A stretch of DNA of 64,000 nucleotides from Candidatus Uhrbacteria bacterium CG_4_9_14_3_um_filter_50_9 (GCA_002791295.1 PFWU01000049.1:47350-111349), one strand, 5' to 3'. Numbered from the stretch's first letter, positions 1 to 21,728 are shown. Notes: generated from the letters alone by a model not told the origin. Numbers and translations: made by a program.

Positions 1-229
1 CTCGAGGCGAACGGGAACGGCTACACCTCCAACACACAGCTCTAGTCGCAGCTCGAACTCACTGGATGACACCATGGGTGGATAACAACCATAGGTTAGG
101 TGAGACGTGCTGTGACACCGGATTCATTCACCAACCCCTCTGAGGTTCTGGATCGTAAATCCACGATGAACCCACTGGACGATCAGAGGACTAACGAGAG
201 AGAGGACTATGACCGGTTAGCACGAAACG

Positions 230-256
230 ACCCCGTTATTTCAACGGGGTTTTCTT
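230..256 (+). terminator. Rho-independent terminator hairpin
   Basis: Stem ccccgtt / aacgggg with loop atttc, followed by a T-run (tttcttatt). Confidence 0.5.
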
Positions 257-280
257 ATTGCTCATCCACAAGCGAAAAAA

Positions 281-310: not shown

Positions 311-3121
311 ATGCTGCAATTATTTATGCGATTGTGGGTCCTCCTTGAGCGGCTCCGAGATCGACTCCTGCAGTTGGCTGCACAACGAAAGACACGTGCC
401 GGTCGCGTTTTTATTACATCTCTCATTGGACTTCTTGCGGTGACCCGTCCGGTGTCTGCTGATAGTCACGATGAACCTGGTACGGCTGCCATTGATTGGA
501 TTTTTCAGAACATGGCGGATGTGGCGTACCAGCTTGCAGGTGTGCTCGCAAAAGGTGTGGTCTTGTTCATTGGTGTGATGACCAATGTGATGCTTTACAA
601 AGACTTTTCTACGAATAGGGTTGTGACGGCGGGTTGGTCTATTGTACGCGACACGGTCAACATGTTTTTCGTTGTGGTTCTTATTATCATTGCGTTCGGA
701 ACTATTTTTGGACATTCAAAATTTCAGTGGCAGCAGCAGGTTCCAAAGCTCATGATTTTTGCGCTCGTGATCAACTTTTCAAAAACGCTTTGTGGCCTCA
801 TGATCGATTTTGGTCAGGTGATCATGCTCACGTTCGCAAATGCCATTCGAGAGATCGTCGCTGGGAACTTCATCCAACTCCTTGGGCTTGGGGAGATCTA
901 CCAAGTGAGTACCTCCTCCACACCTATTTCTGAATCGAAAGGGTTTGCGGCGTTCGATTATTTTGCCGCAGGACTGATGTCTGTGGTGCTCATGATCTGG
1001 GTTTTTGCCACCGTGGTGATTTTGACGGTGATTTTGATCTATCGCGTGATTATGCTTTGGGTTCTTATTGTTGTCTCTCCACTCGCATGGTTTATGGGGG
1101 GAGCTGGAGGTCAGGGTGGAATTGTTTCTTCCAATGCCTATGCGCAGTGGTGGGATCGGTTTAAGTGTCTTGTCGCTGTCGGTCCTGTGCTCACGTTCTT
1201 CTTATGGTTGACGCTGGCTGTTGCTGGAGCGGGGAATGTGGCAGCAAGTACGGGGTTTAATCCAAGTGACGAAAATTCCGCTAATTTTATTGGAAAGATT
1301 TTTGAACTTGATCGGTTCATGAGTTTCTTGATTGGGATGGCCATGCTGTATGCAGGGTTTGATGCGGCGCAGCAATTTTGTTCATCCATGTCAGGAAGTT
1401 TTCTTGGGAGTACATTGAAGAAAGGACAGGGAGTTGGAGGTGCTATGGCAGGGGTTGGTATAAAAGCGACTGCAGCTGGAGCTCGAAAAGTCGGTGGTGG
1501 TCTTCGTGCAGCTCCAAAGTATCTTCCGGGTGGGGCGCAGCTTTCTGAGGCGCTGACAAATCTTCCTTTTAATCGTGAGAATCTTTATCGTGGCGTTGCT
1601 AATGTTGCTGGAGATGGAATGATTGGTAGAGCTGCGTCTTTGGGGGCTTCAAAGGCTGCTGCGGCAAAAGCCTCAAAGCGACGACAAGCTTACGACAAAG
1701 CCGGGGAAACATTTAAAGGGACGACTCGAGAAGACAAGGCAGCTTACGCACGTCGTTTTATGCAAAAGGGGGGTGCTTCTACAGCAGAAGGGCAGCGTGA
1801 ATTAGTGCACCTTTTAAAGGAGGCGATGGGAGATAAGGATTTGGCGAAGGAAATGAAGAAAGATGGCACACTCGGTAAGTTGCACGACAAGTATGGTGGT
1901 ATCGTTCAACGAGATTTTGGTGGGGATGACGATACACGAAAGAAAATGGATGCATTTAATCGTGATAATCTTGATTTATTAACGGGGCCAAAGCATGCCA
2001 AAGATCGTGAGAAAGCTATTGGAAGTATCCGTTCATGGGATGATGTAAAGGGAATGAGTGCGGAGTCCATGAATCAAAGTGATGTACGGGAACGATTGGA
2101 AAAAACTGAGACCAATTTTCGTGGAGAGAATGGTAAGGCACTTTCAGCTGCTGAGGCCCTGGCTGCTGGGTATGGTGGTTCAGAAAAAGCTGCTGCATTC
2201 CAACAGCGTACAGATTTCAGTGCTGTTCCAGCTAGCGCTGTGGCGCAACAGGTTGCCGGTGGCAACCAAGAGGCTGCTGCGGATGCCTTTAGTCGTGCAC
2301 TTGAGGCAGGGGATATGAGTAAGGCAACAGAGATTATTGAGGCGATGGCAGGGACACATGCGAATACGGATGCTCCAGAGGCTGGTGCGGAACGATTCAA
2401 TCTTTCAGTGGGTATGGATGGAATTGAAGGGAAGTTAAAAGCAGCTCTTTCTAGTGCTGAGATGGGTGGCGCAAGTGAGGCACAGGTGGGACAGCTTAAG
2501 AGTGTACTGGAAGTGTTCAATGCTCAACGTAAGAGTGCGGAAGCGTCTACGGCTTTTGCAGGGTCTTATGGAACTGTTCCAGATATTGCTGCGCAATCAG
2601 AGGCACAGGAAGACTTTAGTGGGGCAGCATTTGCTGAAGGGGCGTTTGGTGGGGCAAGCAACGAACGGCTTGCGGATGCGGCTGAGCAAATCGCTGAGCA
2701 AGTTAGAGGTCTTGAAAAAGCCGTTGCGGATGTCAAATTGAATGCTGGTGGAAGTGCTTCTTCGGGCGCAGAAGAACTTCTTTCAACGCGTATTGATTTT
2801 CTGACGCAGCAAATTAAAAATGATGTAGAGGCACGCATAAAGTCTAAGGTTGATGCGTCAAAGGGATTGAGCGTTCGTCTTGATACAGAACAAGATCTTG
2901 GAAAGCGACAAGAGCTTCAGGCGCAAAAGACACAAGTGGATGTTGAGATCAATAACGAAATCACTGCCGCTATGGACGGAAGTGAAGATTTGAAAAAGCT
3001 CAGGACACAGATGGATGGCATGAAGAAAGCCTTAGACGAAGCACGTGCTGCCTCAGATAAAGTCGCAGAATTAAAGGCTATTCGATCTGGAGGGGATGCT
3101 GCGGGAAGAGCAGCCACATAA
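311..3121 (+). CDS. VirB6/TrbL-like polytopic membrane protein (type IV secretion-like) with a ~600 aa Ala/Gly/Lys/Glu-rich low-complexity C-terminal extension
   Basis: The N-terminal ~330 aa contain a signal-peptide-like segment (RKTRAGRVFITSLIGLLAVTRPVSA) and 5-6 hydrophobic helices typical of TrbL/VirB6. It is encoded in the same cluster as a VirB4-like ATPase. The C-terminal two thirds are low-complexity and coiled-coil-like. The start codon is uncertain (311 or a later internal start). Confidence 0.5.
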   Translation: MLQLFMRLWVLLERLRDRLLQLAAQRKTRAGRVFITSLIGLLAVTRPVSADSHDEPGTAAIDWIFQNMADVAYQLAGVLAKGVVLFIGVMTNVMLYKDFSTNRVVTAGWSIVRDTVNMFFVVVLIIIAFGTIFGHSKFQWQQQVPKLMIFALVINFSKTLCGLMIDFGQVIMLTFANAIREIVAGNFIQLLGLGEIYQVSTSSTPISESKGFAAFDYFAAGLMSVVLMIWVFATVVILTVILIYRVIMLWVLIVVSPLAWFMGGAGGQGGIVSSNAYAQWWDRFKCLVAVGPVLTFFLWLTLAVAGAGNVAASTGFNPSDENSANFIGKIFELDRFMSFLIGMAMLYAGFDAAQQFCSSMSGSFLGSTLKKGQGVGGAMAGVGIKATAAGARKVGGGLRAAPKYLPGGAQLSEALTNLPFNRENLYRGVANVAGDGMIGRAASLGASKAAAAKASKRRQAYDKAGETFKGTTREDKAAYARRFMQKGGASTAEGQRELVHLLKEAMGDKDLAKEMKKDGTLGKLHDKYGGIVQRDFGGDDDTRKKMDAFNRDNLDLLTGPKHAKDREKAIGSIRSWDDVKGMSAESMNQSDVRERLEKTETNFRGENGKALSAAEALAAGYGGSEKAAAFQQRTDFSAVPASAVAQQVAGGNQEAAADAFSRALEAGDMSKATEIIEAMAGTHANTDAPEAGAERFNLSVGMDGIEGKLKAALSSAEMGGASEAQVGQLKSVLEVFNAQRKSAEASTAFAGSYGTVPDIAAQSEAQEDFSGAAFAEGAFGGASNERLADAAEQIAEQVRGLEKAVADVKLNAGGSASSGAEELLSTRIDFLTQQIKNDVEARIKSKVDASKGLSVRLDTEQDLGKRQELQAQKTQVDVEINNEITAAMDGSEDLKKLRTQMDGMKKALDEARAASDKVAELKAIRSGGDAAGRAAT

Positions 3122-3127
3122 ATTTGA

Positions 3128-4774
3128 ATGAACGATCAACCAAGCGTGAAACCTGTAACAGTGCGGGGGCTACCCACCGAGGTGCGGCAGCTACTTTTTG
3201 CTGAGAAGACATTTGAAACGTATTACAACTTGGTAGGGGCTGTCGGAGGAGATAAGAGTCAAATTCCAAAGCTTTTAGTCCTTTTTTCCGATGTGCTTAC
3301 CGGACGTGAGGATATTCATTTGTTTCCCACCAAGCTTTCTGAGCTGTTTTCCATTGATGAGACAAAAGGGTATTCCCTTGCTGTGCAACTCATGACAGGT
3401 GTGTTGATGCAGGTAGACGATCTCTTTCAAGACCTAGATTTTCAGGCGCTGACTCGTGAATGGAGTACAAAAGACGATCAAGAAGAAGAAAGTGCTGAGG
3501 AGTTTGCTCATACGTATGTTGAGCAGATGCCTGGAAAAAAAGATGAACGATCTTCACAGAGGCTCGAAGACGTGTTTACCGATTTGGCAGAGGGGGATCT
3601 TACGCATGACGAGGCTGCTTCTCGTCTGGCAAAGTCACCGAAAGTTGGTGGGCTTGGTATTGATCCAACTGTGGCAGAGAGCGTAGTGGATGTGTTTGAA
3701 ACAGAAATGAAAGGCAAGGTTTTTTTGGATGATGTTCCGGTGAATAGACCTCCATCCAAACCCAATCAGCCACAGAAACCCCAAATTGAAGCCTTTACAG
3801 AAGAAGACGAAAAAGAAATTGAGCAGATTAAGCAGGAAAAAGAAGCAGCTCTTACCCATGAGCCGATCACGTCTATTGAGGGTGTGGTGAAGCGTGTGTG
3901 TGAGGACAAGCGTTTTCAGTTTGATAATCCAGTGCTCACCGAGCGCTGTCAAAAAGTTGTTCACTCTCGTGTGCGAGGGGTGAGAGATGCTTTTGCCACA
4001 CGTCGTCAGCTTGAACGTTCTGTTGAGCAAGGCGGTGTGGGGGTGACGGGGCGGTCGCTTGCTGAGATGACGCAGCTCTTAGAGCAGGCTGTGGAGGAAT
4101 ACCATGCACATGCCGGAGCTCAGATCGAGCAAGAAAAGGAACAGGCACAGAAGGTAAAGGAGGCGGCTGCCAGTGCGGAAGAGCAGCGTCAGGTCACTGA
4201 GCAGAAGGTTATGGACAAGCGGTTTGTTGAACTCACAGGGAAGACACCCCGCACGTCTGTCTCACCAACCGGACCAAAGCGATCTCGTACGTCCGCCGCT
4301 GTCTCAGCACAAGTAGAAACACAGCAACGTGAGGGGAAGATTGATGTTGCACGTGTGAAAACAATCATCGAAGCGTCTCAGGCAGCAGCACCAAAATCAG
4401 CGCCACGCCCCAAGCCCAAGCGTGTGCAGGATGTCGTCTTTGAAAAGCGTCTCTCAGGTCCCGTAGAGGAATTAAAGCGATTAACCTTAACAGATTTCAG
4501 ACGTCTTTCATCAGATCCTGTGCAGGCCACCACCAAAATAAAGGACAAAGTGGATTTATTAGAAAATCTTGGTTACGAGCAAAAGGTTGAGGGAATCAAA
4601 GCTTGGAGATCATCGCCGCTCAACCGGCTGTACATCGAGCTCGCAGAGCAGGCCGTGTTATCTGGAACAACGATTCAAGCAGCGCTCGAATCACAGCAGG
4701 AGCGAGGGGTGGAGATGTTTAAGGATGAGGAATTAAAAGCCGTGATGAAGTTGAACGCAGACCTAAGGTTCTGA
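3128..4774 (+). CDS. Hypothetical acidic coiled-coil protein (T4SS-cluster associated)
   Basis: 548-aa ORF lying 7 nt after the previous gene on the same strand. The composition is charged and Glu/Lys-rich. No recognisable motif. Confidence 0.5.
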   Translation: MNDQPSVKPVTVRGLPTEVRQLLFAEKTFETYYNLVGAVGGDKSQIPKLLVLFSDVLTGREDIHLFPTKLSELFSIDETKGYSLAVQLMTGVLMQVDDLFQDLDFQALTREWSTKDDQEEESAEEFAHTYVEQMPGKKDERSSQRLEDVFTDLAEGDLTHDEAASRLAKSPKVGGLGIDPTVAESVVDVFETEMKGKVFLDDVPVNRPPSKPNQPQKPQIEAFTEEDEKEIEQIKQEKEAALTHEPITSIEGVVKRVCEDKRFQFDNPVLTERCQKVVHSRVRGVRDAFATRRQLERSVEQGGVGVTGRSLAEMTQLLEQAVEEYHAHAGAQIEQEKEQAQKVKEAAASAEEQRQVTEQKVMDKRFVELTGKTPRTSVSPTGPKRSRTSAAVSAQVETQQREGKIDVARVKTIIEASQAAAPKSAPRPKPKRVQDVVFEKRLSGPVEELKRLTLTDFRRLSSDPVQATTKIKDKVDLLENLGYEQKVEGIKAWRSSPLNRLYIELAEQAVLSGTTIQAALESQQERGVEMFKDEELKAVMKLNADLRF

Positions 4775-4777
4775 TCC

Positions 4778-4926
4778 TGCTATAATAGGACTGTCCCCGA
4801 ATGAGCGATCTTGCCACGTTCAGGCACCCAGACATCACTTCAACGTCCGTTTTAGGACGTCTTCAGTGATGCCAGCCCGAACGTGACAATCTCATCTCAT
4901 TAGGGAACAGTCCCTACAATAGGACT
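4778..4926 (+). promoter_or_regulatory. Promoter plus structured ~135-nt leader with nested inverted repeats, upstream of the PrgI-like gene
   Basis: An extended -10 (tgcTATAAT, 4778-4786) sits directly after the stop of the 548-aa gene. The 9-mer AATAGGACT is repeated at 4784-4792 and 4916-4924. Inverted repeats ggactgtcccc (4788-4798) and gggaacagtcc (4903-4913) enclose the central hairpin atcacttcaacgtcc-gtttt-aggacgtcttcagtgat (4843-4879). Confidence 0.45.
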
Positions 4927-5358
4927 ATGCCGGAACAATTCGTCGTTCCACAATTTATTGACTCGGAGGATAAAATTTTTGGCCCAATCACCGGCCGTCA
5001 ATTTATTATTTTGATGATCGTGGGTCTCATGGAATTCGTTTTGTTTAAGCTGCTGACATTCGTTTGGTTTCTTGTTGTTGGCATTCCGCTTATTGCCGTC
5101 GGTGGAATTTTAGCGTTTGCAAAAATTAATGGACAACCATTTCACTATTTTATTCTCAATGGCATTCAAACGTTTAAGAAACCTCGGTTGCGTGTGTGGG
5201 ACAAGCGGCACACTGATTCCGAGTTAAGGGAATACATGTTCGCAAAACCGGAGGTTCATAGTGCGGCATTTAAGCGTAAGATTTTTGCAAATACGTCCCA
5301 TCTGCAGGAAATTTCGCTCGTTGTTAATACAGGAGGGGTCTACCAGCCTGAGGAATAA
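4927..5358 (+). CDS. Small two-TM membrane protein, PrgI/VirB3-like (T4SS-associated)
   Basis: 143 aa with two adjacent hydrophobic helices (FIILMIVGLMEFVLFKLLTFVWFLVVGIPLIAVGGILAFA). It lies immediately upstream of the VirB4-like ATPase genes, the position and architecture typical of PrgI/VirB3. Confidence 0.4.
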   Translation: MPEQFVVPQFIDSEDKIFGPITGRQFIILMIVGLMEFVLFKLLTFVWFLVVGIPLIAVGGILAFAKINGQPFHYFILNGIQTFKKPRLRVWDKRHTDSELREYMFAKPEVHSAAFKRKIFANTSHLQEISLVVNTGGVYQPEE

Positions 5359-5360
5359 TT

Positions 5361-6062
5361 ATGCAGTCGAAGAAACTTGCAAAACCCAAGCCAGGAGCAT
5401 CTACCGTGAAATATCTGGATATTGCGGAGATTCGTGATGACATGGTGCTTCTTAAGGACGGGACCGTACGCGCTGTGCTCCTCGTTTCGAGTATTAACTT
5501 TGCCTTAAAGTCCTTTGATGAGCAGGAGGCTATTATTCAGGCGTACATCACCTTTCTGAACTCGCTTGAATACCCTGTACAGATCGTGATCCAATCACGT
5601 CGCATGAATATTGATGCGTACATTGATCAGCTCATTGCGCAGCAGAAGAAAACAGAGAACGACCTCTTGCGTACTCAGATCGCTGATTACCGCAACTTTG
5701 TTCTTGAGCTTGTCGAGCTTGGACAGATCATGCAAAAAATGTTTTACGTGGTGATTCCGTATGACCCCCTTTCTGATAAACGAAAAAACTTTTTTACCCG
5801 CTTGTCAGAAGCCATCTCTCCAGCCGCAGCCGCAAAACTCAACAAAAAGCAATTAGCCGATCGTATTGAGCAACTTTCAAGGAGAGTTGAGATTATTGGT
5901 GGCCAGCTCAACAGTATGGGGCTTGCCTCTTCTCGAATTGATACACAGGGGCTTATTGAAGTGTATTACAACGTCTATAACCCTGACTTGTTTGATACCG
6001 AAAAGCTAGCCGACATCAGCCAGATCCGTCAGGAGCCGGAACCTAACCGTGTCGAATCATAG
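5361..6062 (+). CDS. Hypothetical protein, T4SS-associated (resembles VirB4/TraC N-terminal region)
   Basis: 233-aa ORF starting 3 nt after the previous gene and overlapping the VirB4-like ATPase start by 14 nt (translationally coupled). Confidence 0.45.
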   Translation: MQSKKLAKPKPGASTVKYLDIAEIRDDMVLLKDGTVRAVLLVSSINFALKSFDEQEAIIQAYITFLNSLEYPVQIVIQSRRMNIDAYIDQLIAQQKKTENDLLRTQIADYRNFVLELVELGQIMQKMFYVVIPYDPLSDKRKNFFTRLSEAISPAAAAKLNKKQLADRIEQLSRRVEIIGGQLNSMGLASSRIDTQGLIEVYYNVYNPDLFDTEKLADISQIRQEPEPNRVES

Positions 6063-8244
6063 TATGCCTATTAATATTGAAAACATTAAGAAGGCGATGC
6101 CGGCTTCAGCACCAGAGAAAGTGAAGAAGGTGAAACCAGAGGAGCAACAGCTCCAAGAAGAACGACTGGTGCTTGAGGAAGAGCGTATTTTTCGCAAGGG
6201 AACGGTGACGGTAAAGGACATTATTTCTCCTGCAGCGTTTGAAGTGAAACCAACGTTCCTCCTTCTCTCAGGAGTGTATGTGCGGACGTTGTTTATTATC
6301 ACCTACCCTCGACACATTGGCATTGGATGGTCTTCGCCACTCATCAATCTCAACAAGACGTTTGATGTCGCCATGTATTTCTATCCGATCAAGGCGAGTA
6401 TTATTTTGAAACAGCTCCAGAAAAAAGTAGGTGTGTTCGAGGCAAAGATTTTTGCCGATGCAGAGAAAGGGGCTCCTCGTGATCCGATTGCGGAAACAGC
6501 CCTTCGGGACATTGAGGGATTGCGTGATGCCCTCACACAGGGGACTGAGCATTTTTTTCAATTTGCGTTTTATGTCTCAATCTACGCCAAAGACGAAACA
6601 GAGCTGGAAAAGTACACGCAGCAAGTTGAGTCGCTCTTTGGAAGCAAACTGATCTATACGAAGGCAGGTTTTTATCAGGCGGAGCAGGGATTCAATTCAA
6701 CCATTCCACTTGGGAATGATGAGTTGATGATTACCTACAACATGAATACGTCGCCGATTGCAGCCTCGTTTCCGTTTATCAGCTCTGACCTGACCTCGGA
6801 TAACGGCATTTTGTACGGCATCAACCGACACAACAATTCACTTATTCTCTTCGATCGCTTTAGTTTACAAAACGCTAATTCCGTTGTCTTTGCCACCTCC
6901 GGTGCTGGAAAATCGTACACGATCAAGCTTGAGATTTTACGATCCCTCATGATGGGAGTGGATGTGATCGTGATCGATCCAGAGTATGAGTATAAAGATT
7001 TATCTGATGCGGTTGGAGGGACGTTCATTAACGTGTCTCTTGCTTCCGAGGCGAAAGTGAATCCGTTTGATCTACCGCGTGGTGTGGGTGAGGGGACCAA
7101 GGTGGAGGACATTATTCGAAGTGCGGTTATTACGCTTAAGGGGCTTTTGCGCATCATGATTGGTCAGCCTGTGGGAGAAGCAGGAAAGATGGGATTTACT
7201 CCGTCGGAAGATTCGCTGCTTGACCGAGCATTGATCGAAACGTACGCAAAACAAGATATCACACCAGACCTCACCTCTCTTGCCGATATTGAACCTCCAG
7301 TCCTGACAGACTTTCAAGATGTACTTGAGGGTATGGAGGGGTCAGAAGAATTGGTTGCGCGCTTGAAAAAGTTTACAGAAGGAACGTTTGCAGGACTTTT
7401 GAACAACCCAACCAATGTGGTCATGAGTAACCAGTTGGTGGTGTATTCAGTGCGAGATCTTGAAGACGAGCTGCGTCCAACAGCGATCTATACCATTATC
7501 AACTACATCTGGAACGTGACGCGTTCTGAGCGAAAGAAGCGCATTTTAGTGGTGGATGAGGCGTGGTGGCTGATGCAGAATGAAGATTCTGCGAAATTCA
7601 TTTTTGCGCTTGTGAAACGCGCGCGAAAATACTTCATGGGGGTCACAACCATCACCCAGGACGTGAACGACTTCCTTCGTTCTGCATATGGGCAAGCGAT
7701 TGTGACGAACTCAGCCCTTCAGATTTTGATGAAACAGTCACCGTCTGCGATTGATCTTATTCAAAAAACATTTAGTCTCACCGACGGAGAAAAATACTTG
7801 CTTCTTGAGTCAGGGGTAGGTGAGGGTATTTTCTTTGCTGGGAACAAGCACGCCGCAATCAAAGTCGTTGCCTCCTATACAGAAGATCAAATTGTCACCA
7901 CGAATCCTCAGCAGCTGCTTGATATTGAGGAAGCCAAAAAGGAATTTGAGGCTGAACTCCAAAGGGAACAAGGAGAAGAAGGTGATGGAGGAACACCGGC
8001 GTCGAGAGAGGTTTCATCAGAACAAGCGCCTACAGAAGTCGCTTCAGAAGGAGCTCCGACAGAACCGCCACTAGACGCTACGGCCTCCAAGGAGGAAGTC
8101 TTTGATATCGAGAAAGAAGCTCAGGAGGCTTTAGCACAAGAACAAAAAGATCAACAGGCCGAGGACGCTGCAGCAGCCTTGCTTAAAGAAGAAGATGCTG
8201 GAAAGATTGAAGCTGATAAAATTCGTGAATCACTCTCCGTATGA
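6049..8244 (+). CDS. VirB4/TraC/TrbE-like type IV secretion ATPase
   Basis: Walker A (FATSGAGKSYT), Walker B (ILVVDEAWWLM), and a CagE/TrbE/VirB4-like N-terminal region. 731 aa with an acidic C-terminal tail. Confidence 0.8.
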   Translation: MSNHSMPINIENIKKAMPASAPEKVKKVKPEEQQLQEERLVLEEERIFRKGTVTVKDIISPAAFEVKPTFLLLSGVYVRTLFIITYPRHIGIGWSSPLINLNKTFDVAMYFYPIKASIILKQLQKKVGVFEAKIFADAEKGAPRDPIAETALRDIEGLRDALTQGTEHFFQFAFYVSIYAKDETELEKYTQQVESLFGSKLIYTKAGFYQAEQGFNSTIPLGNDELMITYNMNTSPIAASFPFISSDLTSDNGILYGINRHNNSLILFDRFSLQNANSVVFATSGAGKSYTIKLEILRSLMMGVDVIVIDPEYEYKDLSDAVGGTFINVSLASEAKVNPFDLPRGVGEGTKVEDIIRSAVITLKGLLRIMIGQPVGEAGKMGFTPSEDSLLDRALIETYAKQDITPDLTSLADIEPPVLTDFQDVLEGMEGSEELVARLKKFTEGTFAGLLNNPTNVVMSNQLVVYSVRDLEDELRPTAIYTIINYIWNVTRSERKKRILVVDEAWWLMQNEDSAKFIFALVKRARKYFMGVTTITQDVNDFLRSAYGQAIVTNSALQILMKQSPSAIDLIQKTFSLTDGEKYLLLESGVGEGIFFAGNKHAAIKVVASYTEDQIVTTNPQQLLDIEEAKKEFEAELQREQGEEGDGGTPASREVSSEQAPTEVASEGAPTEPPLDATASKEEVFDIEKEAQEALAQEQKDQQAEDAAAALLKEEDAGKIEADKIRESLSV

Positions 8245-8819
8245 TATCCCGACGAAAACGAACGATTTTCATTCTCCTTGCGCTCTTGGTTTTACTCCTT
8301 CTCCTGCTTTGGTTCCTCATGGCCTTTCTTTCACGTACGCCTGAAACAGAAAGCGGTCCGACTGAAACCACAACAGAAGAGGAAGTCGACGATGTTATTC
8401 CGAGCAACCCAACGATTTCTGAGGAAGCAGTGGAACGAGAACGAGAGACACGTAATGGCTCATCGGATGTTATCTCGCTTTCCAAAAGCTTTGTGGAACG
8501 TTATGGCAGTTATTCAAACGAAGCAGAGTTTGCCAACCTTGTAGATGTGCTTCCTCTCATGTCGGACAGCTTTGCCTCTGAGACAGAAGACTTTATTGAA
8601 TCCGCTGTGGCTCCAGAGGAATACTACGGGGTGAGCACACAGATTGTGACGGTCAGCGTTCTGAGTCAGTCAGAGAGCCAAGCAACAGTGCTGCTGACAA
8701 CACAGCGCGAGGAGGCAAATGGGTCTCCACAAAACACCTCTGTGTATTATCAAGATATTGAGCTCGTCTTTGTCAAAGAAGGTGGAGAGTGGCGCGTGAA
8801 TTCAGCAACTTGGCGTTAA
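8241..8819 (+). CDS. N-terminally membrane-anchored extracytoplasmic protein (possible VirB8-like component)
   Basis: Single N-terminal TM helix (IFILLALLVLLLLLLWFLMAF), then an acidic linker and a ~100-aa C-terminal domain. The start overlaps the VirB4 stop. The VirB8 assignment rests on architecture only. Confidence 0.35.
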   Translation: MISRRKRTIFILLALLVLLLLLLWFLMAFLSRTPETESGPTETTTEEEVDDVIPSNPTISEEAVERERETRNGSSDVISLSKSFVERYGSYSNEAEFANLVDVLPLMSDSFASETEDFIESAVAPEEYYGVSTQIVTVSVLSQSESQATVLLTTQREEANGSPQNTSVYYQDIELVFVKEGGEWRVNSATWR

Positions 8820-8826
8820 TGAAGAG

Positions 8827-8860
8827 GCTCCAGCTCACCCACGGGAGGCTGGAGTTTTTG
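8827..8860 (+). terminator. Rho-independent terminator
   Basis: Stem ctccagc / gctggag followed by ttttt. Confidence 0.55.
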
Positions 8861-8865
8861 TTTCT

Positions 8866-9564
8866 ATGCAGGACTTGTCAATAAAACATCAATTCCTTGA
8901 ATCGCTTTTTCCACGATTTTGTATTGGATGCAACCGTGAGGGCATGCATTGGTGTCACGGGTGTGCAAGCCGTTGGATGCCAGAGCCCCTTTCTGCTCGT
9001 TGTCCGTTTTGTCATCGCTTGGGAAGCGATCGTGTGTGCGGTGCATGTAGATCAGAAGTCTATCTTGATGGTGTGAGTGCGCTCGCACCTTACGGGAATC
9101 CTGTCGTGCGCAAGGCTCTTCAGACCTGGAAGTATGATGGAGATCGTGAAATTGAAAAGGTGTTACAGCAGTGGTTGACTGCGGGTGCTGCGCACATAAC
9201 GCCTCCGCTTGCGCCGTTTCATGCCTGTGCCGTTCCGCTTCACGAGGGGAAACAGCGCCAGAGAGGCTTTGATCAGGCAGACGTCGTTGCACAGTGGGCA
9301 AGTGGGTTGTATGGCATTCCACACACGTCACTTTTGGTGCGCAAGACAAAGACAGCTTCACAAGCCAAACGGGCTGGTGGATCAAGACAGGTGGGGGAGC
9401 TCGACGGTGTGTTTCACATCCGCCGAGATGTGGCTGTTCCAGAACACGTACTCCTCTGTGACGATGTGTTCACAAGCGGGGCAACCATCGATGCCGCCGC
9501 TCGTACGCTCAAAGAGGCCGGAGCCAAACAGGTCTGGGGTTGGGTGATTGCGAGGGGACGATAA
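8866..9564 (+). CDS. comFC: ComF-family protein (ComFC-like phosphoribosyltransferase-domain competence protein)
   Basis: N-terminal 4-Cys zinc finger (CIGC...CHGC / CPFC...CGAC) and a C-terminal PRTase motif VLLCDDVFTSGATI. Confidence 0.8.
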   Translation: MQDLSIKHQFLESLFPRFCIGCNREGMHWCHGCASRWMPEPLSARCPFCHRLGSDRVCGACRSEVYLDGVSALAPYGNPVVRKALQTWKYDGDREIEKVLQQWLTAGAAHITPPLAPFHACAVPLHEGKQRQRGFDQADVVAQWASGLYGIPHTSLLVRKTKTASQAKRAGGSRQVGELDGVFHIRRDVAVPEHVLLCDDVFTSGATIDAAARTLKEAGAKQVWGWVIARGR

Positions 9565-13495: not shown

Positions 13496-15541
13496 ATGGC
13501 CATTCACTTAGGATCGTCCGTCTCTGAACTTCCTGGCATTGGAGGGAAAGCAGTTACAGACCTCAAAAACCTCGGGGTTACGTCTGTGCGGGATCTTTTG
13601 TGGTATGTGCCGTTTCGATATGATGATTTTTCGGTGATTCGTGGAGCCGGCGAGGTGCGAGCAGGGGAGACCGTGACTGTGATTGGGACCGTACAGTCGA
13701 TTCGTTCACGACCAGCGAAAAGTCGGAATCTTAAAATCATTGATGGAATTATTCAGGATGAAACAGGTGAGTTGAAAGTCACGTGGTTTAATCAGTCGTA
13801 TCTTGAGCAATCACTCCCACCTGGGACGAAGGTGTCCGTGGCAGGTGAGGTGAATAACAAGTACGGGTTGTCTATGACGAACCCTGTGATTGAGAAGCAT
13901 CAAGTAGGTGTACACACAGGGCGCATTGTGCCGGTGTATGGGCTCACAGGTTCACTCACAATGAAGCGTCTTCGTTCTGCCATGAACGTCGCGCTTCCAG
14001 CCGCAAGTGAGTTTCCTGATTGGATGCCAGGGGACATTGTGTCGACAGAGCGTCTGCCGTCCCTGCCACAGGCACTCAAAGCGATACACTTTCCTGATTC
14101 ACGAAAGGATCTTGAGACCGCTATTGAGCGACTTAAGTTTGATGAGTTGTTTTTGCACCAGCTCATGTTTGCACATGTTCGAAGCGAACGAGCGTTTAAG
14201 CGTGCGGCAGAGATTGAGCTCAATGAAGTTTTTTTGAAAGCGTTTGTCGGTGGGTTACCGTTTACGCTTACCAGCGCACAAAAGAAAGCCGTGTGGGAGA
14301 TTGTGCAGGACATGGCAAAACCACACCCAATGAACCGCTTACTTGAGGGGGATGTGGGGTCGGGTAAAACCGTCGTGTCTGCGGCAGCCGCAGCGAGTGT
14401 GCTTCGTGTGGGTCAGCGGGTTGTGTACCTGGCGCCGACGGAGATTCTCGCAACCCAGCAGCACCAGGCCTTTGTGAAGTTTTTGAATCAGCCCGTCGCA
14501 CTCTTGACGCGTTCACAACAGAAGTTGGGGGAGGAAGAAGTGTCCAAGAGTGATTTAATTGAACAGATTAACACTGGAAACGTTCAGTGCATCGTCGGGA
14601 CGCATGCGCTCTTGCAAGAAAAGGTTCAGCTTGGCGACATTGGCCTCATCATCATCGACGAGCAGCATCGTTTTGGCGTGGAGCAGCGACATGCGCTTTT
14701 AGATCACGACCCAGCACCACACCTCCTCTCTATGACGGCAACGCCGATTCCACGCTCACTGGCTCTCACGGTTTACGGAGATCTTGAACTTTCAATTCTG
14801 AACGAGATGCCAGCCGGACGAAAGCCGGTGGCAACAGCGGTTGTTCCGCATCATCAGCAAGAGGGGATGTGGAGTCATGTGCGTGCTCAGGTGAAGGAAG
14901 GCCGCCAGGTATTCGTCGTCTGCCCACTCATCGATCCGTCAGACAAGCTTGGAGCGAAGTCCGTGGCGGAAGTGGCAAAGGATCTGAAGAAAGGCCCTCT
15001 TAAGGACGTCACGATTGGGGTCTTGCACGGACGGCTCAAGTCAGACGAGAAAGAACAAGCCATCACAGACTTTCGTGATAACAAAATCGATGTGCTTGTT
15101 TCGACGACGGTCGTGGAGGTTGGAGTCGACATTCCAAATGCGAGCGTCATGGTTATCGTCGGAGCAGAACGTTTTGGCCTCGCGCAGCTTCACCAGCTGA
15201 GGGGACGTGTTGGGCGGTCGGATATTCAAAGCTATTGCTACTTGTTGCCAGGGGAGATGTTGACCGGAAACGGTGAGAGCCGGCTTAAGGCCATGGAAGA
15301 GACGGTAGATGGATTCAAACTAGCCGAAAAAGACCTCGAACTCCGCGGCCCAGGAAACGTCTTCGGAAACGCCCAATCAGGCTTCCCAGACTTCCAATTA
15401 GCGACACCAGCGGACGTCGACCTTATGAAGAAAGCAAGAGACTACACCGTGGAATTATTAGAACAAGATCCACATTTAGAGGGGCACCCATTAGTGGCGG
15501 AAAGAATCGAGAGAGAATTCGAAGCAGTTCATTTAGAGTGA
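13496..15541 (+). CDS. recG: ATP-dependent DNA helicase RecG
   Basis: 681 aa with an N-terminal wedge region, Walker A GDVGSGKT, DEQHRFGV (DEQH), and helicase C motifs (QLRGRVGR). Confidence 0.9.
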   Translation: MAIHLGSSVSELPGIGGKAVTDLKNLGVTSVRDLLWYVPFRYDDFSVIRGAGEVRAGETVTVIGTVQSIRSRPAKSRNLKIIDGIIQDETGELKVTWFNQSYLEQSLPPGTKVSVAGEVNNKYGLSMTNPVIEKHQVGVHTGRIVPVYGLTGSLTMKRLRSAMNVALPAASEFPDWMPGDIVSTERLPSLPQALKAIHFPDSRKDLETAIERLKFDELFLHQLMFAHVRSERAFKRAAEIELNEVFLKAFVGGLPFTLTSAQKKAVWEIVQDMAKPHPMNRLLEGDVGSGKTVVSAAAAASVLRVGQRVVYLAPTEILATQQHQAFVKFLNQPVALLTRSQQKLGEEEVSKSDLIEQINTGNVQCIVGTHALLQEKVQLGDIGLIIIDEQHRFGVEQRHALLDHDPAPHLLSMTATPIPRSLALTVYGDLELSILNEMPAGRKPVATAVVPHHQQEGMWSHVRAQVKEGRQVFVVCPLIDPSDKLGAKSVAEVAKDLKKGPLKDVTIGVLHGRLKSDEKEQAITDFRDNKIDVLVSTTVVEVGVDIPNASVMVIVGAERFGLAQLHQLRGRVGRSDIQSYCYLLPGEMLTGNGESRLKAMEETVDGFKLAEKDLELRGPGNVFGNAQSGFPDFQLATPADVDLMKKARDYTVELLEQDPHLEGHPLVAERIEREFEAVHLE

Positions 15542-19198: not shown

Positions 19199-20509
19199 TT
19201 ATAGCTCTTTAATGTTACTCACTCGTTTAACTTCGATCTTTTCTGTTTTTATATCTGCTTTCGTTGGGATGGCGGCGCACTCAATGCCGAGTCGGCTGGC
19301 TTCAGTGAGTCGTTTCTGGGTGAGGGGAGCGCTGCGGACTTCGCCACCGAGACCGACTTCGCCGATGTAGACGGTGGGGGTGGTGTTGGCTTGGTTTGTG
19401 AAGGCGCTTTTGATTGCCGCGCAGATGGCTAGGTCCACGGCGGGTTCTTTGAGCTTCATTCCGCCGATCACGTTCACGTAGACATCTTTATCGCCGAGTT
19501 TCAGGCCGGCGCGTTTACTCAAAATGGCGACGAGCATCTGGAGCCGGTTTTGATCAAACCCAGACGCACGACGCACGGGGGTGCCGTAAAAGCTGTTTTC
19601 AACCAGCGCCTGAACTTCTACCAGAAAGACGCGTGACCCTTCGATCGTTGCGGCGATCACGGAGCCAGGCGTATTCGCGCGTTCTTCTAGGAACCTGGCA
19701 GATGGATTCTCAACAGCGATCAGGCCTTTCTCGGTCATCTCAAACACGCCGATTTCGTCCGTGGCTCCGAAACGATTTTTGTTTGCGCGAAGCATACGGT
19801 AGGCGTGGACCGGGTCACCCTCGATTTCGATTACGACGTCGACGAGGTGTTCGAGCGTCTTCGGTCCTGCGATGGATCCGTCTTTGGTGACTTGTCCAAC
19901 AAGAAGAATAGAAACGCCTGTACGTTTAGCTGTTTCAAGAAGAAGGGCTGTGGCGTAACGCACGAGGGCAGGGGAGCCGGTGGTACTGTCGAGTTCGTCA
20001 GACGTGAGGGTCTGCACAGAATCGATGATGACGAGCGCAGGTTTTTCTTTTTCAATGGTTTGGGCGAGTAACTCTACGGGGAGTGGATCGAGGATACGCA
20101 CATGGTCCGTAGGTTTTTCGATGCGGTGAAAACGTGCGGCGAGCTGGCCTGGGGATTCTTCACCTGAGATGTAGAGCACCGTGTCCCGTATCGAACCGGC
20201 GATCGCAGCGACGATCGTTGACTTTCCAATACCTGGCTCGCCTGAGATGAGGACCAGCGATCCTTTTACGATTCCACCCCCGAGCACACGGTTGATTTCC
20301 GGGTCGCCAGTTGGAAGACGTTCGTGTTCATTTTGTTTTGCGACATCCTTGAGCGGTTGGCTCGCTGTTGTTTTTACAGGAGTCGAAGAAGACGAGCGTT
20401 TTTTGCTCGTCCCTCCTTGTTCTTCTGTGAGGGTTCCCCACTTGGCACATTCCGTGCATCGCCCAGCCCACTTGGGGAATTGCGAGTCACAATTGCTACA
20501 GATAAACAT
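19199..20509 (-). CDS. radA: DNA repair protein RadA/Sms
   Basis: N-terminal C4 zinc finger (CSNCDSQFPKWAGRCTECAKW), Walker A GEPGIGKST, KNRFG motif, and a Lon-protease-like C-terminal domain. The start was moved to the internal ATG (MFICSNC); the upstream part of the ORF-track call overlaps the next gene. Confidence 0.9.
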   Translation of the reverse strand: MFICSNCDSQFPKWAGRCTECAKWGTLTEEQGGTSKKRSSSSTPVKTTASQPLKDVAKQNEHERLPTGDPEINRVLGGGIVKGSLVLISGEPGIGKSTIVAAIAGSIRDTVLYISGEESPGQLAARFHRIEKPTDHVRILDPLPVELLAQTIEKEKPALVIIDSVQTLTSDELDSTTGSPALVRYATALLLETAKRTGVSILLVGQVTKDGSIAGPKTLEHLVDVVIEIEGDPVHAYRMLRANKNRFGATDEIGVFEMTEKGLIAVENPSARFLEERANTPGSVIAATIEGSRVFLVEVQALVENSFYGTPVRRASGFDQNRLQMLVAILSKRAGLKLGDKDVYVNVIGGMKLKEPAVDLAICAAIKSAFTNQANTTPTVYIGEVGLGGEVRSAPLTQKRLTEASRLGIECAAIPTKADIKTEKIEVKRVSNIKEL

Positions 20510-20510
20510 A

Positions 20511-21728
20511 CTAGTTACAGGTTGATGACATTTTTGGTTTTTCAAAGTGCCAAGGCTCAGACCGAAGGTTGCAGAAACCCTCAGCACGCATCGCATCAAT
20601 GAGTGTTCCCTGACAATCATCTTCTCTACAAGCATCTCGATCAGCAAGACATTCGTCTTGAGAAAGACATTGTGCTCCACCCTTGGTTCCCCAGATATCG
20701 AGTGCACGGCCTGTTGTATGCGGACAATTGGCTGGATCGTTGTTGCGCAGAATACAGGTGGTTGGTCTCCCTGGTTTTGGATTGCAGGTGGCTGACCCTG
20801 CTGGATTTTGACAGTTTTTTGCAATGAGTGCTTTTTGTTTTTCCACACTTCGATAACTTGAGGAAATGGCAATACCATATCCCTTATCAGCCATGGTCGC
20901 AGCAGCCGCTTCAATATCTGTGACAAGTTCATCTGGAATGCTCGAAACACCTCCGCCGGTAATATTTGAACCACTGGCTGTGCTCAGGCTTGTGGCCACA
21001 GTTCCTGTGACAGAATCATCCTCACTTTCTTCTCCATCAATCGCTTCAAACTTAATGTTTGTAAGAGTTGGGGTTTCAAGTGAGACGAGCTGTGGGTTTA
21101 CAAGATACAAAATTGAGTAGGTGCTTAACAAAAGGACTAATCCTATGACCGCATTTTTGATGCGTTCTTTCGCCTTTCCCACATCCCCATGACCACCTGC
21201 AAAGGCATACTGAAGGCCACCAATCATGATCATGATAATGGCAATAAGAATTGAGATGCCAATCAGATAGACATAGATTGCAGAAACATAGAGTTCAAAA
21301 AAGTTGAAATCAAGGACACTGTCACCACCCGCTGTGACACTTTTTGTGACGGAAAAATTACCCACGTTTAATCCAGGAATATCAACATTCAAGGTTGGGG
21401 TAATCGTCTTGGCTGTATTTGAAGTCGTAGACGTTGAGGTGGCGGTTGGGTCGGTATTTGACAGACCTGCGCCAGAGCAGGTGGTCGTGCACTCAATAGA
21501 GGCCGAGGTGGTTGTGCAGGTACAGAATCCATCATCTCCAACGCTCTGAAGTGTCTCTCCAAACGAGGCACAGGCGGCGGTGCACTCGTCCTCGGAATTT
21601 TCTGAGGAACCGACACCATTTTCATCGTAGCAGGAGCAGTCAGCAAGGACGGGGGTTGCGGAAAAAAGGAGTCCTGCCAAAACAACAGAAAAAAGGAGTG
21701 TACCGATAGTGAACTGTTGTCGTTTCAT
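20511..21728 (-). CDS. Secreted Cys-rich protein with a VirB2/TrbC-like two-helix membrane hairpin, fused to a peptidase M15 (VanY/LAS-type) peptidoglycan hydrolase-like domain
   Basis: Signal peptide MKRQQFTIGTLLFSVVLAGLLFSATPVLA. A 9-Cys region (CSCYDENG...CTTTCSGAG). The hairpin YVYLIGISILIAIIMIMIGGLQYAFAGG-KAKERIKN-AVIGLVLLLSTYSILYLV. The C-terminal SSYRS...HTTGRALDIWG is typical of LAS/M15 zinc peptidases. Confidence 0.55.
   Translation of the reverse strand: MKRQQFTIGTLLFSVVLAGLLFSATPVLADCSCYDENGVGSSENSEDECTAACASFGETLQSVGDDGFCTCTTTSASIECTTTCSGAGLSNTDPTATSTSTTSNTAKTITPTLNVDIPGLNVGNFSVTKSVTAGGDSVLDFNFFELYVSAIYVYLIGISILIAIIMIMIGGLQYAFAGGHGDVGKAKERIKNAVIGLVLLLSTYSILYLVNPQLVSLETPTLTNIKFEAIDGEESEDDSVTGTVATSLSTASGSNITGGGVSSIPDELVTDIEAAAATMADKGYGIAISSSYRSVEKQKALIAKNCQNPAGSATCNPKPGRPTTCILRNNDPANCPHTTGRALDIWGTKGGAQCLSQDECLADRDACREDDCQGTLIDAMRAEGFCNLRSEPWHFEKPKMSSTCN

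What the first reader, a model, noticed from the sequence alone, without database searches (positions are those of the whole stretch)
311..8819. Type-IV-secretion-like module: VirB6-like with giant disordered tail, PrgI-like, split VirB4-like ATPase, VirB8-like candidate
Seen in sequence. The cluster is co-directional and tightly packed, with translationally coupled overlaps:
- a TrbL/VirB6-like polytopic protein;
- a 548-aa acidic protein;
- a two-TM PrgI/VirB3-like protein;
- a 233-aa protein;
- a VirB4/TraC ATPase with Walker A and B motifs;
- a membrane-anchored possible VirB8-like protein.

No relaxase, coupling protein (VirD4) or obvious pilin is present. ComFC follows immediately downstream. 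In reduced-genome episymbiotic bacteria such minimal VirB4/VirB6 sets are suspected to act in DNA uptake or host interaction rather than conjugation (established knowledge).

The VirB6-like protein carries a ~600-aa Ala/Gly/Lys/Glu-rich low-complexity C-terminal extension. That is atypical for the family and could form a long surface-exposed fibre or spacer.
Basis: partly seen in the sequence, partly recalled or inferred. Interest (0 to 1): 0.5.

Follow-up and report, generated by a model that had tools for sequence, protein, structure and literature searches.

The report
Patescibacterial (ABY1-type) type IV secretion locus

Summary
The six co-directional ORFs at 311-8819 are real and conserved. 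In about 50 related Uhrbacteria-, Magasanikbacteria- and Falkowbacteria-like genomes the order is the same: VirB6-like, a 548-aa unknown protein, PrgI/VirB3, TrsD, VirB4, VirB8-like, ComF; Uhrbacteria-like loci also carry SerRS and an M23 peptidase upstream.

Tests support every assignment:
- PrgI passes Pfam's threshold.
- The 233-aa protein matches the N-terminal part of VirB4 profiles.
- The 731-aa protein passes the NCBIfam CD1110 VirB4 cut-off.
- The polytopic domain of the 936-aa protein has R388 TrwI/VirB6 as top structural hit, but no curated profile hit.

The split VirB4 and the long VirB6 tail are normal for this lineage, not anomalies. No relaxase or coupling protein was recognised in the window (not all ORFs were profile-scanned).

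"No pilin" holds only inside 311-8819. Two pilin-domain proteins fused to cell-wall hydrolases sit at 20511-23025 (- strand). In some relatives this conserved cluster directly abuts VirB8.

The system matches the Patescibacteria T4SS published in 2023 and 2025, including the ABY1-specific comF/recG/radA neighbourhood. It is a new member of a known kind. Function remains inferred.

The parts
1..45 (+). 3' end of a 635/652-aa secreted Peptidase_M23 gene, cut by the window start. The full gene is at L001 2039/2090-3997. It is a candidate VirB1-type wall hydrolase of the system.
   Evidence: L001 is identical to the window over 11,723 nt. Pfam Peptidase_M23 scores 52.4 bits against GA 28.7. It lies upstream of the VirB6-like gene in about 50 of the 80 related loci.
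229..260 (+). Terminator-like hairpin plus T-run after the M23 gene. It is followed by an extended -10-like TGCTATAAT at 291-299, just before the VirB6-like start.
   Evidence: Consensus scan. Fold energy is -14.4 kcal/mol, z -3.7. Sequence read. These are consensus matches only, and promoter-like sites are not enriched overall.
311..3121 (+). Extended VirB6-like protein. It has a signal-like N-terminus, a polytopic domain (aa ~55-365) and a ~570-aa hydrophilic Ala/Gly/Glu/Lys-rich C-terminal tail.
3128..4774 (+). Conserved 548-aa soluble acidic protein of unknown fold. It is a lineage-specific component that always sits between VirB6-like and PrgI.
   Evidence: 44 homologues, those with names all Uhrbacteria or Patescibacteria. 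Present at this position in every related locus long enough to show it. No Pfam, NCBIfam or PDB match for 29 family members.
4778..4926 (+). Intergenic insert. A second TGCTATAAT lies at 4778-4786. A 126-nt near-perfect palindrome at 4788-4913 is flanked by 22-nt direct repeats (82 % identical), at 4780-4801 and 4914-4935.
   Evidence: Fold energy is -59.7 kcal/mol, z -8.7. About half of the related loci have a gap of only ~12 nt or less here, and many of those gaps begin with a TAnAAT-like motif. A partial copy lies at L001 1952-1988.
4927..5358 (+). PrgI / VirB3-like two-TM protein.
   Evidence: Pfam PrgI PF12666 scores 36.7 bits against GA 27. Two TM segments.
5361..6062 (+). TrsD-like protein: the N-terminal piece of VirB4 encoded as a separate gene.
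   Evidence: NCBIfam matches: VirB4_plasma positions 94-238 (E 6e-11), TrsD/TraD NF041427 (E 6e-6), CD1110 positions 18-123, PRK13853 VirB4 positions 14-172. It is 28 % identical (E 2e-26) to the gene in the same position of the Pontibacillus plasmid locus. It is a separate gene in all related loci.
6049..8244 (+). VirB4 ATPase body of the MPF_FATA / CD1110 type, with a 117-aa acidic C-terminal tail.
   Evidence: NF045971 scores 328.8 bits against cut-off 325, profile positions 171-730 of 752. P-loop_TraG scores 94.6 bits. Walker A at aa 282 and Walker B at aa 499. The closest plasmid homologues are 35 % identical and from monoderms.
8241..8819 (+). VirB8-like bitopic protein: N-terminal TM, acidic linker, NTF2-like domain.
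8823..8862 (+). Terminator-like hairpin with a 13-bp stem and a U-run, between VirB8-like and ComF.
   Evidence: Fold energy -21.4 kcal/mol, z -2.65. Sequence.
8866..9564 (+). ComF-family (ComFC/GntX-like) protein. It is the conserved downstream neighbour.
   Evidence: TIGR00201 E 2.3e-21, GntX E 6.6e-18, DZR_2 plus Pribosyltran domains. It follows VirB8-like in most related loci.
13496..15541 (+). RecG helicase (conserved neighbourhood gene).
   Evidence: Pfam RecG_wedge, DEAD, Helicase_C and RecG_dom3_C. RecG is convergent with RadA in many related loci.
19199..20509 (-). RadA/Sms. It starts at the ATG at 20509, immediately after the pilin-VanY gene.
   Evidence: Pfam KaiC/AAA_25, zinc ribbon, ChlI/Lon_C. 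Start codon analysis. It follows the pilin genes in most of the metagenome loci that extend past them.
20511..21728 (-). VirB2-like pilin-domain protein fused to a VanY/M15 D-Ala-D-Ala carboxypeptidase domain. It has a signal peptide and 18 Cys.
   Evidence: T4SS_pilin PF18895 scores 38.7 bits (GA 26.6) and VanY 25.7 bits (GA 25). The motifs SxYR, HxxGxAxD and ExWH were read from the sequence. Cys count.
21730..23025 (-). Paralogous pilin-domain protein fused to a Peptidase_M23 domain. It has a signal peptide and 20 Cys.
   Evidence: T4SS_pilin scores 36.7 bits (GA 26.6). Peptidase_M23 scores 26.2 bits, just below GA 28.7. HxxxD and HxH were read from the sequence. It is 41 % identical to its neighbour over the N-terminal ~240 aa.
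23025..25887 (-). Three genes: a DsbA-like thioredoxin (23025-23678), a 404-aa N-terminal-TM protein (23680-24894), and a 327-aa protein with a basic N-terminus and C-terminal TMs (24904-25887). They are conserved partners of the pilin genes.
   Evidence: Thioredoxin_4 and DSBA hits. The order p327-p404-DsbA-pilin(s)-RadA recurs in the metagenome loci. In L104, VirB8, pilin, p404, pilin and RadA are contiguous on one strand.

Best explanation
The locus is the chromosomal, vertically inherited type IV secretion system of a class-ABY1 (Uhrbacteria-like) Patescibacterium. It is a monoderm-type, MPF_FATA-derived core.

Composition:
- an extended VirB6;
- VirB3/PrgI;
- a VirB4 ATPase encoded in two genes (TrsD-like N-terminal piece plus ATPase body);
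- a bitopic VirB8-like protein;
- one lineage-specific soluble 548-aa protein;
- a secreted M23 wall hydrolase upstream;
- a partner cluster at 19199-25887 on the - strand: two pilin-domain/wall-hydrolase fusion proteins, a DsbA-like oxidoreductase, two membrane proteins and RadA.

Shown here: the identity of the parts, their conservation and order, the chromosomal setting, and that the searches run recognised no relaxase or coupling protein in the window.

Inferred mechanism: VirB4 hexamers, docked to the membrane through TrsD and VirB3, power a VirB6/VirB8 platform. The platform extracts the two-helix pilin hairpins from the membrane and assembles or presents them, as in the R388 pilus-biogenesis model. 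This carries the fused, disulfide-rich M23 and VanY hydrolase domains outward to open cell wall at the contact with the host bacterium.

The confidence given (0.85) is for the identity of the system. I put this 'pilin-hydrolase display / protein export at the host interface' mechanism at about 0.4, and DNA import at about 0.3.
For: Component identities.

The gene order VirB6ext-ORF2-PrgI-TrsD-VirB4-VirB8-ComF is conserved in about 50 of 80 loci from Uhrbacteria, Magasanikbacteria, Falkowbacteria and unnamed Patescibacteria, with SerRS-M23 upstream in the Uhrbacteria-like ones.

Chromosomal context: RecG, RadA, a Clp/Hsp100-type chaperone, DnaE, aminoacyl-tRNA synthetases and tRNAs, with even GC of 0.45-0.51.

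No ORF with a TM plus P-loop architecture like VirD4 is present, and no relaxase family appeared among the window ORFs that were scanned.

The pilin-domain proteins score above the Pfam threshold. Their cluster abuts VirB8 or VirB4 in L100, L104-L107, L110 and L113.

Each pilin fusion has 18-20 Cys, all outside the TM hairpin, and a DsbA-like gene is adjacent.

Literature:
- Patescibacterial VirB4 forms a clade inside MPF_FATA. TrsD is its commonest partner. VirB8 hits are nearly all in ABY1. comF, recG and radA flank the T4SS in ABY1. Relaxases are mostly absent (PMC12102498).
- The T4SS and its pilins are essential for epibiotic growth of Southlakia (PMC10633639).
- VirB6 acts as the pilin recruitment and assembly platform in R388 (PMC9259494).
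Against: - No curated VirB6/TrbL profile matches the 936-aa protein or 15 relatives. The structural match rests on a pLDDT-64 model, and Foldseek is not significant.
- The pilin cluster is 12 kb away on the opposite strand in this genome, so co-regulation is not shown.
- A 200-aa enzyme on every pilin subunit is hard to reconcile with a packed pilus. These proteins may be membrane-anchored hydrolases rather than pilus subunits.
- The conserved linkage to ComF, RadA and RecG points to DNA handling rather than protein export.
- VirB4 clade membership was not tested by phylogeny.
- No expression or functional data exist for any ABY1 member.
Confidence: 0.85

Rival explanations
1. Same machine, different job. 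It is a DNA-import apparatus, a T4SS run inward like H. pylori ComB or the archaeal Ced system. It takes host or environmental DNA across the membrane and hands it to ComF, RadA and RecG for processing or recombination.
For: ComF follows VirB8-like in most related loci, and RadA follows it in four more distant ones. RadA always follows the pilin genes, and RecG is convergent with RadA. This association survives rearrangements: compare the window with L104 and with L083-L096. PMC12102498 notes the same comF/recG/radA association for ABY1. Absence of a relaxase and coupling protein fits a non-export DNA role.
Against: A terminator-like hairpin separates VirB8-like from ComF. SerRS is equally conserved upstream, so the synteny may simply be inherited gene order. 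VirB4 scores 45.7 bits on CedB against 328.8 bits on the conjugative CD1110 model. In Southlakia, competence depends on ComEC, which is dispensable for growth, whereas the T4SS is essential. No ComEC or ComEA was seen in the window, although not all ORFs were scanned.
Confidence: 0.3
2. It is a remnant or active part of an integrative conjugative element or plasmid of Gram-positive type that was captured by this genome.
For: The VirB4, TrsD and PrgI families are those of monoderm conjugative elements. The closest non-CPR relatives are on plasmids. The Pontibacillus plasmid locus has the same gene order.
Against: No relaxase, coupling protein or integrase appeared among the window ORFs that were scanned. 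GC is the same as in the surroundings. The same housekeeping neighbours recur across many genomes and several candidate phyla. Identity to plasmid VirB4 is only 35 %. The literature finds the system chromosomal, near-universal and vertically inherited within classes.
Confidence: 0.04
3. It is not a T4SS. Instead, a HerA/FtsK-type DNA pump lies next to unrelated membrane proteins.
For: Weak DUF87/HerA (33 bits) and AAA_10 hits on the ATPase. No curated VirB6 hit.
Against: The VirB4-specific model is passed at its curated cut-off and covers 560 residues. PrgI is above threshold. The VirB8 fold and the VirB6 fold are top-ranked structural hits. T4SS pilin domains are nearby.
Confidence: 0.02

Closest known systems
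Patescibacteria-clade T4SS (Southlakia epibionticum SEML1_0006-0019, Wang et al. 2023, PMC10633639; survey by Quinonero-Coronel et al. 2025, PMC12102498), ABY1-class arrangement
   Same: It is chromosomal. It has an MPF_FATA-type VirB4 with an adjacent TrsD, PrgI/VirB3 and VirB6. No relaxase or coupling protein lies nearby. VirB2-like pilin domains are present. A VirB8-like protein and the comF/recG/radA neighbourhood match what was reported specifically for ABY1.
   Different: The two papers, as far as I read and searched them, do not mention three features: the ~570-aa VirB6 tail, the conserved 548-aa protein between VirB6 and PrgI, and pilin domains fused to M23/VanY hydrolases. In Southlakia the pilin array lies inside the cluster, and the 2025 survey (PMC12102498) reports that no structural VirB8 homologue was detected there. 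Here VirB8-like is clear, and the pilin genes are 12 kb away.
Monoderm conjugative MPF_FATA systems: pGO1/pSK41 (TrsC-TrsD-TrsE), CTn2/CD1110 family, pCF10 PrgH-PrgI-PrgJ-PrgK-PrgL
   Different: There is no relaxase, coupling protein or adhesin. The locus is not on a mobile element. Pilin-domain proteins are present. VirB6 is extended, and there is an extra 548-aa protein.
Pontibacillus sp. ALD_SL1 megaplasmid NZ_CP062975 locus (closest non-CPR VirB4, 35 % identity)
   Same: The order is two T4SS_pilin genes, a 779-aa TrbL-like protein, a PrgI/TraL-like protein, a 274-aa TrsD homologue, VirB4, then an M23 + NlpC/P60 hydrolase. PLSDB types the plasmid as non-mobilizable.
   Different: The pilins are short and not fused to hydrolases. 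There is no ORF2 homologue or VirB8-like gene in that position. The VirB6-like proteins show no detectable sequence similarity.
Extended VirB6 proteins (F-plasmid TraG, Rickettsiales VirB6 paralogues), as defined in PMC12857230
   Same: A polytopic VirB6 domain is followed by a large hydrophilic C-proximal region of unknown role.
   Different: The tail has no sequence relationship to those proteins. It is poorly conserved even within the family, at 8-26 % identity.
T4SS-related DNA-import systems (H. pylori ComB; archaeal Ced, CedA/CedB)
   Same: They are built around a VirB4-type ATPase, have no relaxase, and are linked to DNA uptake.
   Different: VirB4 here scores far better on conjugative models than on CedB. 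ComB is a diderm system with VirB7, VirB9 and VirB10 (own knowledge).

Membership tests
Patescibacteria-clade T4SS (PMC12102498) | VirB4 of MPF_FATA type | tested here: met
   NF045971 CD1110 scores 328.8 bits against cut-off 325. The ranking is CD1110 > Mycoplasma ICE VirB4 > F TraC > VirB4_CagE > Bacteroides TraG > CedB.
Patescibacteria-clade T4SS (PMC12102498) | VirB4 falls inside the monophyletic Patescibacteria clade | not tested
   No phylogeny was run. Indirect evidence: VirB4 homologues sit in the same gene order in ~60 Patescibacteria loci, while the best plasmid hits are only 35 % identical.
Patescibacteria-clade T4SS (PMC12102498) | TrsD homologue encoded next to virB4 | tested here: met
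Patescibacteria-clade T4SS (PMC12102498) | VirB3/PrgI homologue near virB4 | tested here: met
   PF12666 scores 36.7 bits against GA 27.
Patescibacteria-clade T4SS (PMC12102498) | Chromosomal, with no relaxase or coupling protein beside virB4 | tested here: met
   Housekeeping context. No VirD4-like TM + P-loop ORF in 64 kb. No relaxase family appeared among the ORFs scanned; a few ORFs remain unscanned.
Patescibacteria-clade T4SS, ABY1 pattern | VirB8 homologue present, with comF, recG and radA in the neighbourhood | tested here: met
   Uhrbacteria belong to ABY1 (PMC10413278).
Patescibacteria-clade T4SS (PMC12102498) | VirB2-like pilin genes | tested here: met
   PF18895 scores 38.7 and 36.7 bits against GA 26.6, at 20511-23025 on the - strand. 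They are not inside 311-8819.
VirB6/TrbL family | Match to a curated VirB6/TrbL profile at threshold | tested here: not met
   No Pfam hit for 16 family members. Only sub-threshold NCBIfam hits, each in a single member, to conjugative membrane-protein families: CD3337/EF1877 E 0.004, MMCAP2_0566, pLS20_p028, Mbov_0396. The precomputed PF19590 flags on P0018 and P0019 were not reproduced.
VirB6/TrbL family | Polytopic protein with the VirB6 helical fold, encoded beside VirB3/VirB4 | tested here: met
VirB8 family | Bitopic: N-terminal TM plus NTF2-like extracytoplasmic domain with the VirB8 fold | tested here: met
VirB8 family | Pfam VirB8 (PF04335) at gathering score | tested here: not met
   The window protein has no hit. 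7 of 40 relatives give weak hits, best E 1.8e-5.
Conjugative MPF_FATA T4SS | Relaxase and type IV coupling protein; location on a plasmid or ICE | tested here: not met
Ced / ComB DNA-import systems | ATPase closest to CedB; CedA-type or ComB-type partners | tested here: not met
   CedB scores 45.7 bits against a cut-off of 700, and CedD 24.8 bits.
HerA/FtsK ATPases | Best match to HerA/FtsK models | tested here: not met
   DUF87 scores 33 bits over 63 residues only, whereas VirB4 models cover 560 residues.

The most novel reading that the evidence does not exclude
ABY1 Patescibacteria carry a distinct T4SS variant in which three things come together. VirB2-type pilin hairpins serve as carriers for disulfide-rich peptidoglycan hydrolases (M23, VanY and others). 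An extended VirB6 and a lineage-specific 548-aa protein replace the missing coupling protein. The machine breaches the host wall and imports host DNA, which is handed to the co-inherited ComF/RadA/RecG set. In effect this would be a secretion system turned into a feeding and uptake organ.
Probability: 0.15. Interest if true: 0.75.

Novelty: new member of a known kind. Interest (0 to 1): 0.3.

Why it matters
The Patescibacteria T4SS is the only T4SS known to be essential for the growth of its owner, and its substrate and direction of transport are unknown.

This locus adds no new kind of system. It does give a clean, well-conserved ABY1 example with three things going for it:
- a structurally convincing VirB8;
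- a defined extra component (the 548-aa protein) and an extended VirB6 whose roles could be tested;
- pilin-hydrolase fusions that suggest a concrete, testable activity at the host cell wall.

Tried and rejected
- Pfam and NCBIfam on the VirB6-like protein and 13-15 relatives gave no hit at threshold.
- A PDB sequence search with the full-length VirB6 alignment returned only low-complexity noise from the tail.
- hhalign of the VirB6 domain profile against the Pontibacillus TrbL-like protein showed no similarity.
- The 548-aa protein family gave nothing usable in Pfam, NCBIfam, PHROGs or PDB sequence searches. It shows no similarity to the VirB6 tail and has no internal repeats.
- PHROGs 'terminase large subunit' hits on TrsD and VirB4 were set aside as generic P-loop/VirB4-like similarity.
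- PDB sequence searches with the hydrolase halves of the pilin fusions and with the 404-aa protein gave no hits.
- The afdb50 fold library was unavailable.
- The sigma-70 promoter scan was not enriched over shuffles, so promoter statements rest only on reading two TGCTATAAT motifs.
- Tail topology: the positive-inside rule favours a cytoplasmic tail. Across the family, the 70 residues after the last TM have K+R of about 11 against D+E of about 2.4. However, in the R388 structure only two VirB6 helices are in the membrane, so I left the question open.
- A frameshift artefact as the cause of the TrsD/VirB4 split was rejected, because the split is present in every related locus and in the Pontibacillus plasmid.

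Full report
**Observation.** The window carries six co-directional ORFs at exactly the coordinates given: 311-3121 (936 aa), 3128-4774 (548 aa), 4927-5358 (143 aa), 5361-6062 (233 aa), 6049-8244 (731 aa) and 8241-8819 (192 aa). ComF follows at 8866-9564. The junctions are a 6-nt gap, a 152-nt gap, a 2-nt gap, a 14-nt overlap and a 4-nt overlap. An independent metagenome assembly (ENA ERZ17912254 NODE_3714) is identical over 11,723 nt and extends the sequence 3.95 kb upstream. GC content is even across the region.

**PrgI, TrsD and VirB4.**
- The 143-aa protein passes the Pfam PrgI threshold (36.7 bits against 27) and has two TM segments.
- The 731-aa protein passes the NCBIfam cut-off of the CD1110 family of VirB4-like conjugal ATPases (328.8 against 325). 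It aligns only to profile positions 171-730 of 752.
- The 233-aa protein aligns to the missing N-terminal part: CD1110 positions 18-123, VirB4_plasma positions 94-238 and PRK13853 positions 14-172. It also hits the TrsD/TraD family.
- Walker A (ATSGAGKS, aa 282) and Walker B (ILVVDE, aa 499) are present.

**Conservation.** A scan of one genome per species returned 80 loci. These are nearly all Uhrbacteria, plus Magasanikbacteria, Falkowbacteria and unnamed Patescibacteria. Wherever the contig is long enough, the order is VirB6-like (819-1110 aa, median 954), ORF2 homologue, PrgI, TrsD (223-267 aa), VirB4 (622-742 aa) and VirB8-like. ComF follows in most loci, about 50 in all, and RadA follows in four distant ones. 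SerRS and an M23 peptidase lie upstream in the Uhrbacteria-like loci. Three conclusions follow:
- The TrsD/VirB4 split is not a frameshift.
- The long VirB6 tail is the family norm. Most of the best 150 of 21,767 profile hits are 800-1100 aa long.
- The 548-aa protein is a fixed component, although it matches nothing known.

**The VirB6 tail.** The tail is compositionally biased but not repetitive. It is poorly conserved, at 8-26 % identity, against 60-87 % in the membrane motifs. Which side of the membrane it occupies is unresolved. The positive-inside rule suggests the cytoplasm. In the R388 structure, however, only two VirB6 helices are in the membrane.

**Wider window.** The region is chromosomal. 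It contains RecG (13496-15541), RadA (19199-20509, - strand), a Clp/Hsp100-type chaperone, DnaE, aminoacyl-tRNA synthetases and three tRNAs. No VirD4-like ORF (TM plus P-loop) is present, and no relaxase family appeared among the ORFs scanned.

**Pilin cluster.**
- 20511-21728 and 21730-23025 (- strand) are tandem paralogues.
- Each has a signal peptide, a Cys-rich N-terminal region, a T4SS_pilin two-helix hairpin above Pfam threshold, and a C-terminal wall-hydrolase domain.
- One hydrolase domain is VanY/M15, at threshold. The other is Peptidase_M23, just below threshold. Catalytic motifs are intact in both.
- Each has 18-20 cysteines, all outside the hairpin, and a DsbA-like gene is adjacent.
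- The block p327-p404-DsbA-pilin(s)-RadA recurs in the 36 metagenome loci retrieved.
- In L104 the order ORF2-PrgI-TrsD-VirB4-VirB8-pilin-p404-pilin-RadA is contiguous on one strand. Several other loci have a pilin-like ORF directly after VirB4 or VirB8.

I therefore count the block 19199-25887 as the second half of the same system.

**Transcription signals (weak evidence).**
- A terminator-like hairpin follows the M23 gene (229-251), and another follows VirB8-like (8823-8859).
- An extended -10-like TGCTATAAT precedes both the VirB6-like gene (291-299) and PrgI (4778-4786).
- The 152-nt ORF2-PrgI spacer is a 126-nt palindrome flanked by direct repeats. About half of the relatives have a gap of only ~12 nt or less here.

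**Comparison with what is known.** The system matches the Patescibacteria T4SS.
- Quinonero-Coronel et al. 2025 (PMC12102498) found VirB4 in about 80 % of 3,035 genomes, forming a clade nested in MPF_FATA.
- In that survey TrsD was the most frequent partner, PrgI and VirB6 were common, relaxases were rare, and coupling proteins were rarely encoded near virB4.
- VirB8 hits were almost confined to class ABY1, and comF, recG and radA lay in the ABY1 neighbourhood.
- Uhrbacteria belong to ABY1.
- Wang et al. 2023 showed that the T4SS and its pilins are essential for epibiotic growth of Southlakia.
- The closest non-CPR relative is a Pontibacillus megaplasmid locus. Its VirB4 is 35 % identical, and it has pilins, a TrbL-like protein, a PrgI-like protein, a TrsD homologue and an M23/NlpC hydrolase in the same order.
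- 'Extended VirB6' is a recognised class.

In the two papers I found no mention of the VirB6 tail, the 548-aa protein or pilin-hydrolase fusions.

**Mechanism.** The parts and their linkage are shown. Everything else is inferred.

The gene set is VirB4, VirB3, VirB6, VirB8 and pilin-domain proteins, without a coupling protein or relaxase. In the R388 model this is the set needed to extract pilins from the membrane and assemble them on VirB6. My preferred reading, at about 0.4, is that the machine presents pilin-anchored hydrolases at the contact with the host.

The persistent linkage with ComF, RadA and RecG keeps DNA import a serious rival, at about 0.3. Two points weigh against reading too much into that synteny: a terminator-like hairpin precedes ComF, and SerRS is equally conserved upstream.

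**Verdict.** The system is a new member of a known kind and of moderate-to-low interest in itself. The pilin-hydrolase fusions and the unknown 548-aa component are the points worth further work.

Noticed in passing
window 20511-23025 (- strand), with 23025-25887 and RadA 19199-20509: Two tandem paralogues, each combining a T4SS_pilin hairpin with a peptidoglycan-hydrolase domain (VanY/M15 and M23) and 18-20 Cys. They lie next to a DsbA-like gene, a 404-aa and a 327-aa membrane protein, and RadA. The cluster is conserved in 36 metagenome loci and is contiguous with VirB8 in L104. I found no mention of such fusions in the two T4SS papers read.
   Followed up: yes
L001 2039-3997 (ends at window 45): A 635/652-aa secreted M23 peptidase with an acidic Asp/Ser/Glu linker and a large Cys-containing C-terminal region lies directly upstream of the VirB6-like gene. 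It is conserved there in Uhrbacteria-like loci and is a probable VirB1 analogue. The window start cuts it off.
   Followed up: partly
window 4778-4935; L001 1952-1988: A 126-nt near-perfect palindrome (-59.7 kcal/mol, z -8.7) is flanked by 22-nt direct repeats and inserted between ORF2 and PrgI. About half of the relatives have a gap of only ~12 nt or less there, often starting with a TAnAAT-like motif. Several other lineages carry unrelated palindromic inserts at the same junction. A 37-nt partial copy lies between SerRS and the M23 gene. It looks like a small MITE/REP-like element and an insertion hot spot.
   Followed up: partly
window 7891-8244 (VirB4 aa 615-731): VirB4 ends in a 117-aa very acidic Glu/Ala/Gln-rich tail (pI 4.1), beyond the region that matches VirB4 profiles. 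VirB4 length varies from 622 to 742 aa among relatives, so this tail is lineage-specific.
   Followed up: no
window 12653-12720: A 15-nt tandem repeat (CGAACGTACATGTAG, 4.5 copies, 98 % matches) lies between a 165-aa membrane-protein ORF and tRNA-Arg(GCG). Two tRNA-Ser genes are at 11547-11877 on the - strand.
   Followed up: no
window 9583-10338: A KNTase/ANT(4')-like nucleotidyltransferase lies directly after ComF. It scores 80 bits against a cut-off of 350, so it is not a bona fide resistance enzyme. An ECF sigma factor (15624-16136) overlaps the start of a 646-aa VWA-domain protein (16129-18069) after RecG.
   Followed up: no
loci L006, L010, L011, L014, L018, L021 and others; L063, L070, L076: Many public MAG records carrying this Uhrbacteria-type locus are titled 'uncultured Gammaproteobacteria bacterium'. 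Three are titled Bacillota, Vicinamibacterales or Acutalibacteraceae. These are probably mislabelled or mis-binned contigs.
   Followed up: no
L002 (NZ_CP062975.1 351801-361354): A Pontibacillus 898-kb 'non-mobilizable' plasmid carries a relaxase-less T4SS-like locus next to flagellar genes. Its order is pilin x2, TrbL-like, PrgI-like, TrsD-like, VirB4, M23+NlpC/P60. It is the closest non-CPR relative of this system and shows that pilin-bearing monoderm T4SS are not confined to Patescibacteria.
   Followed up: partly
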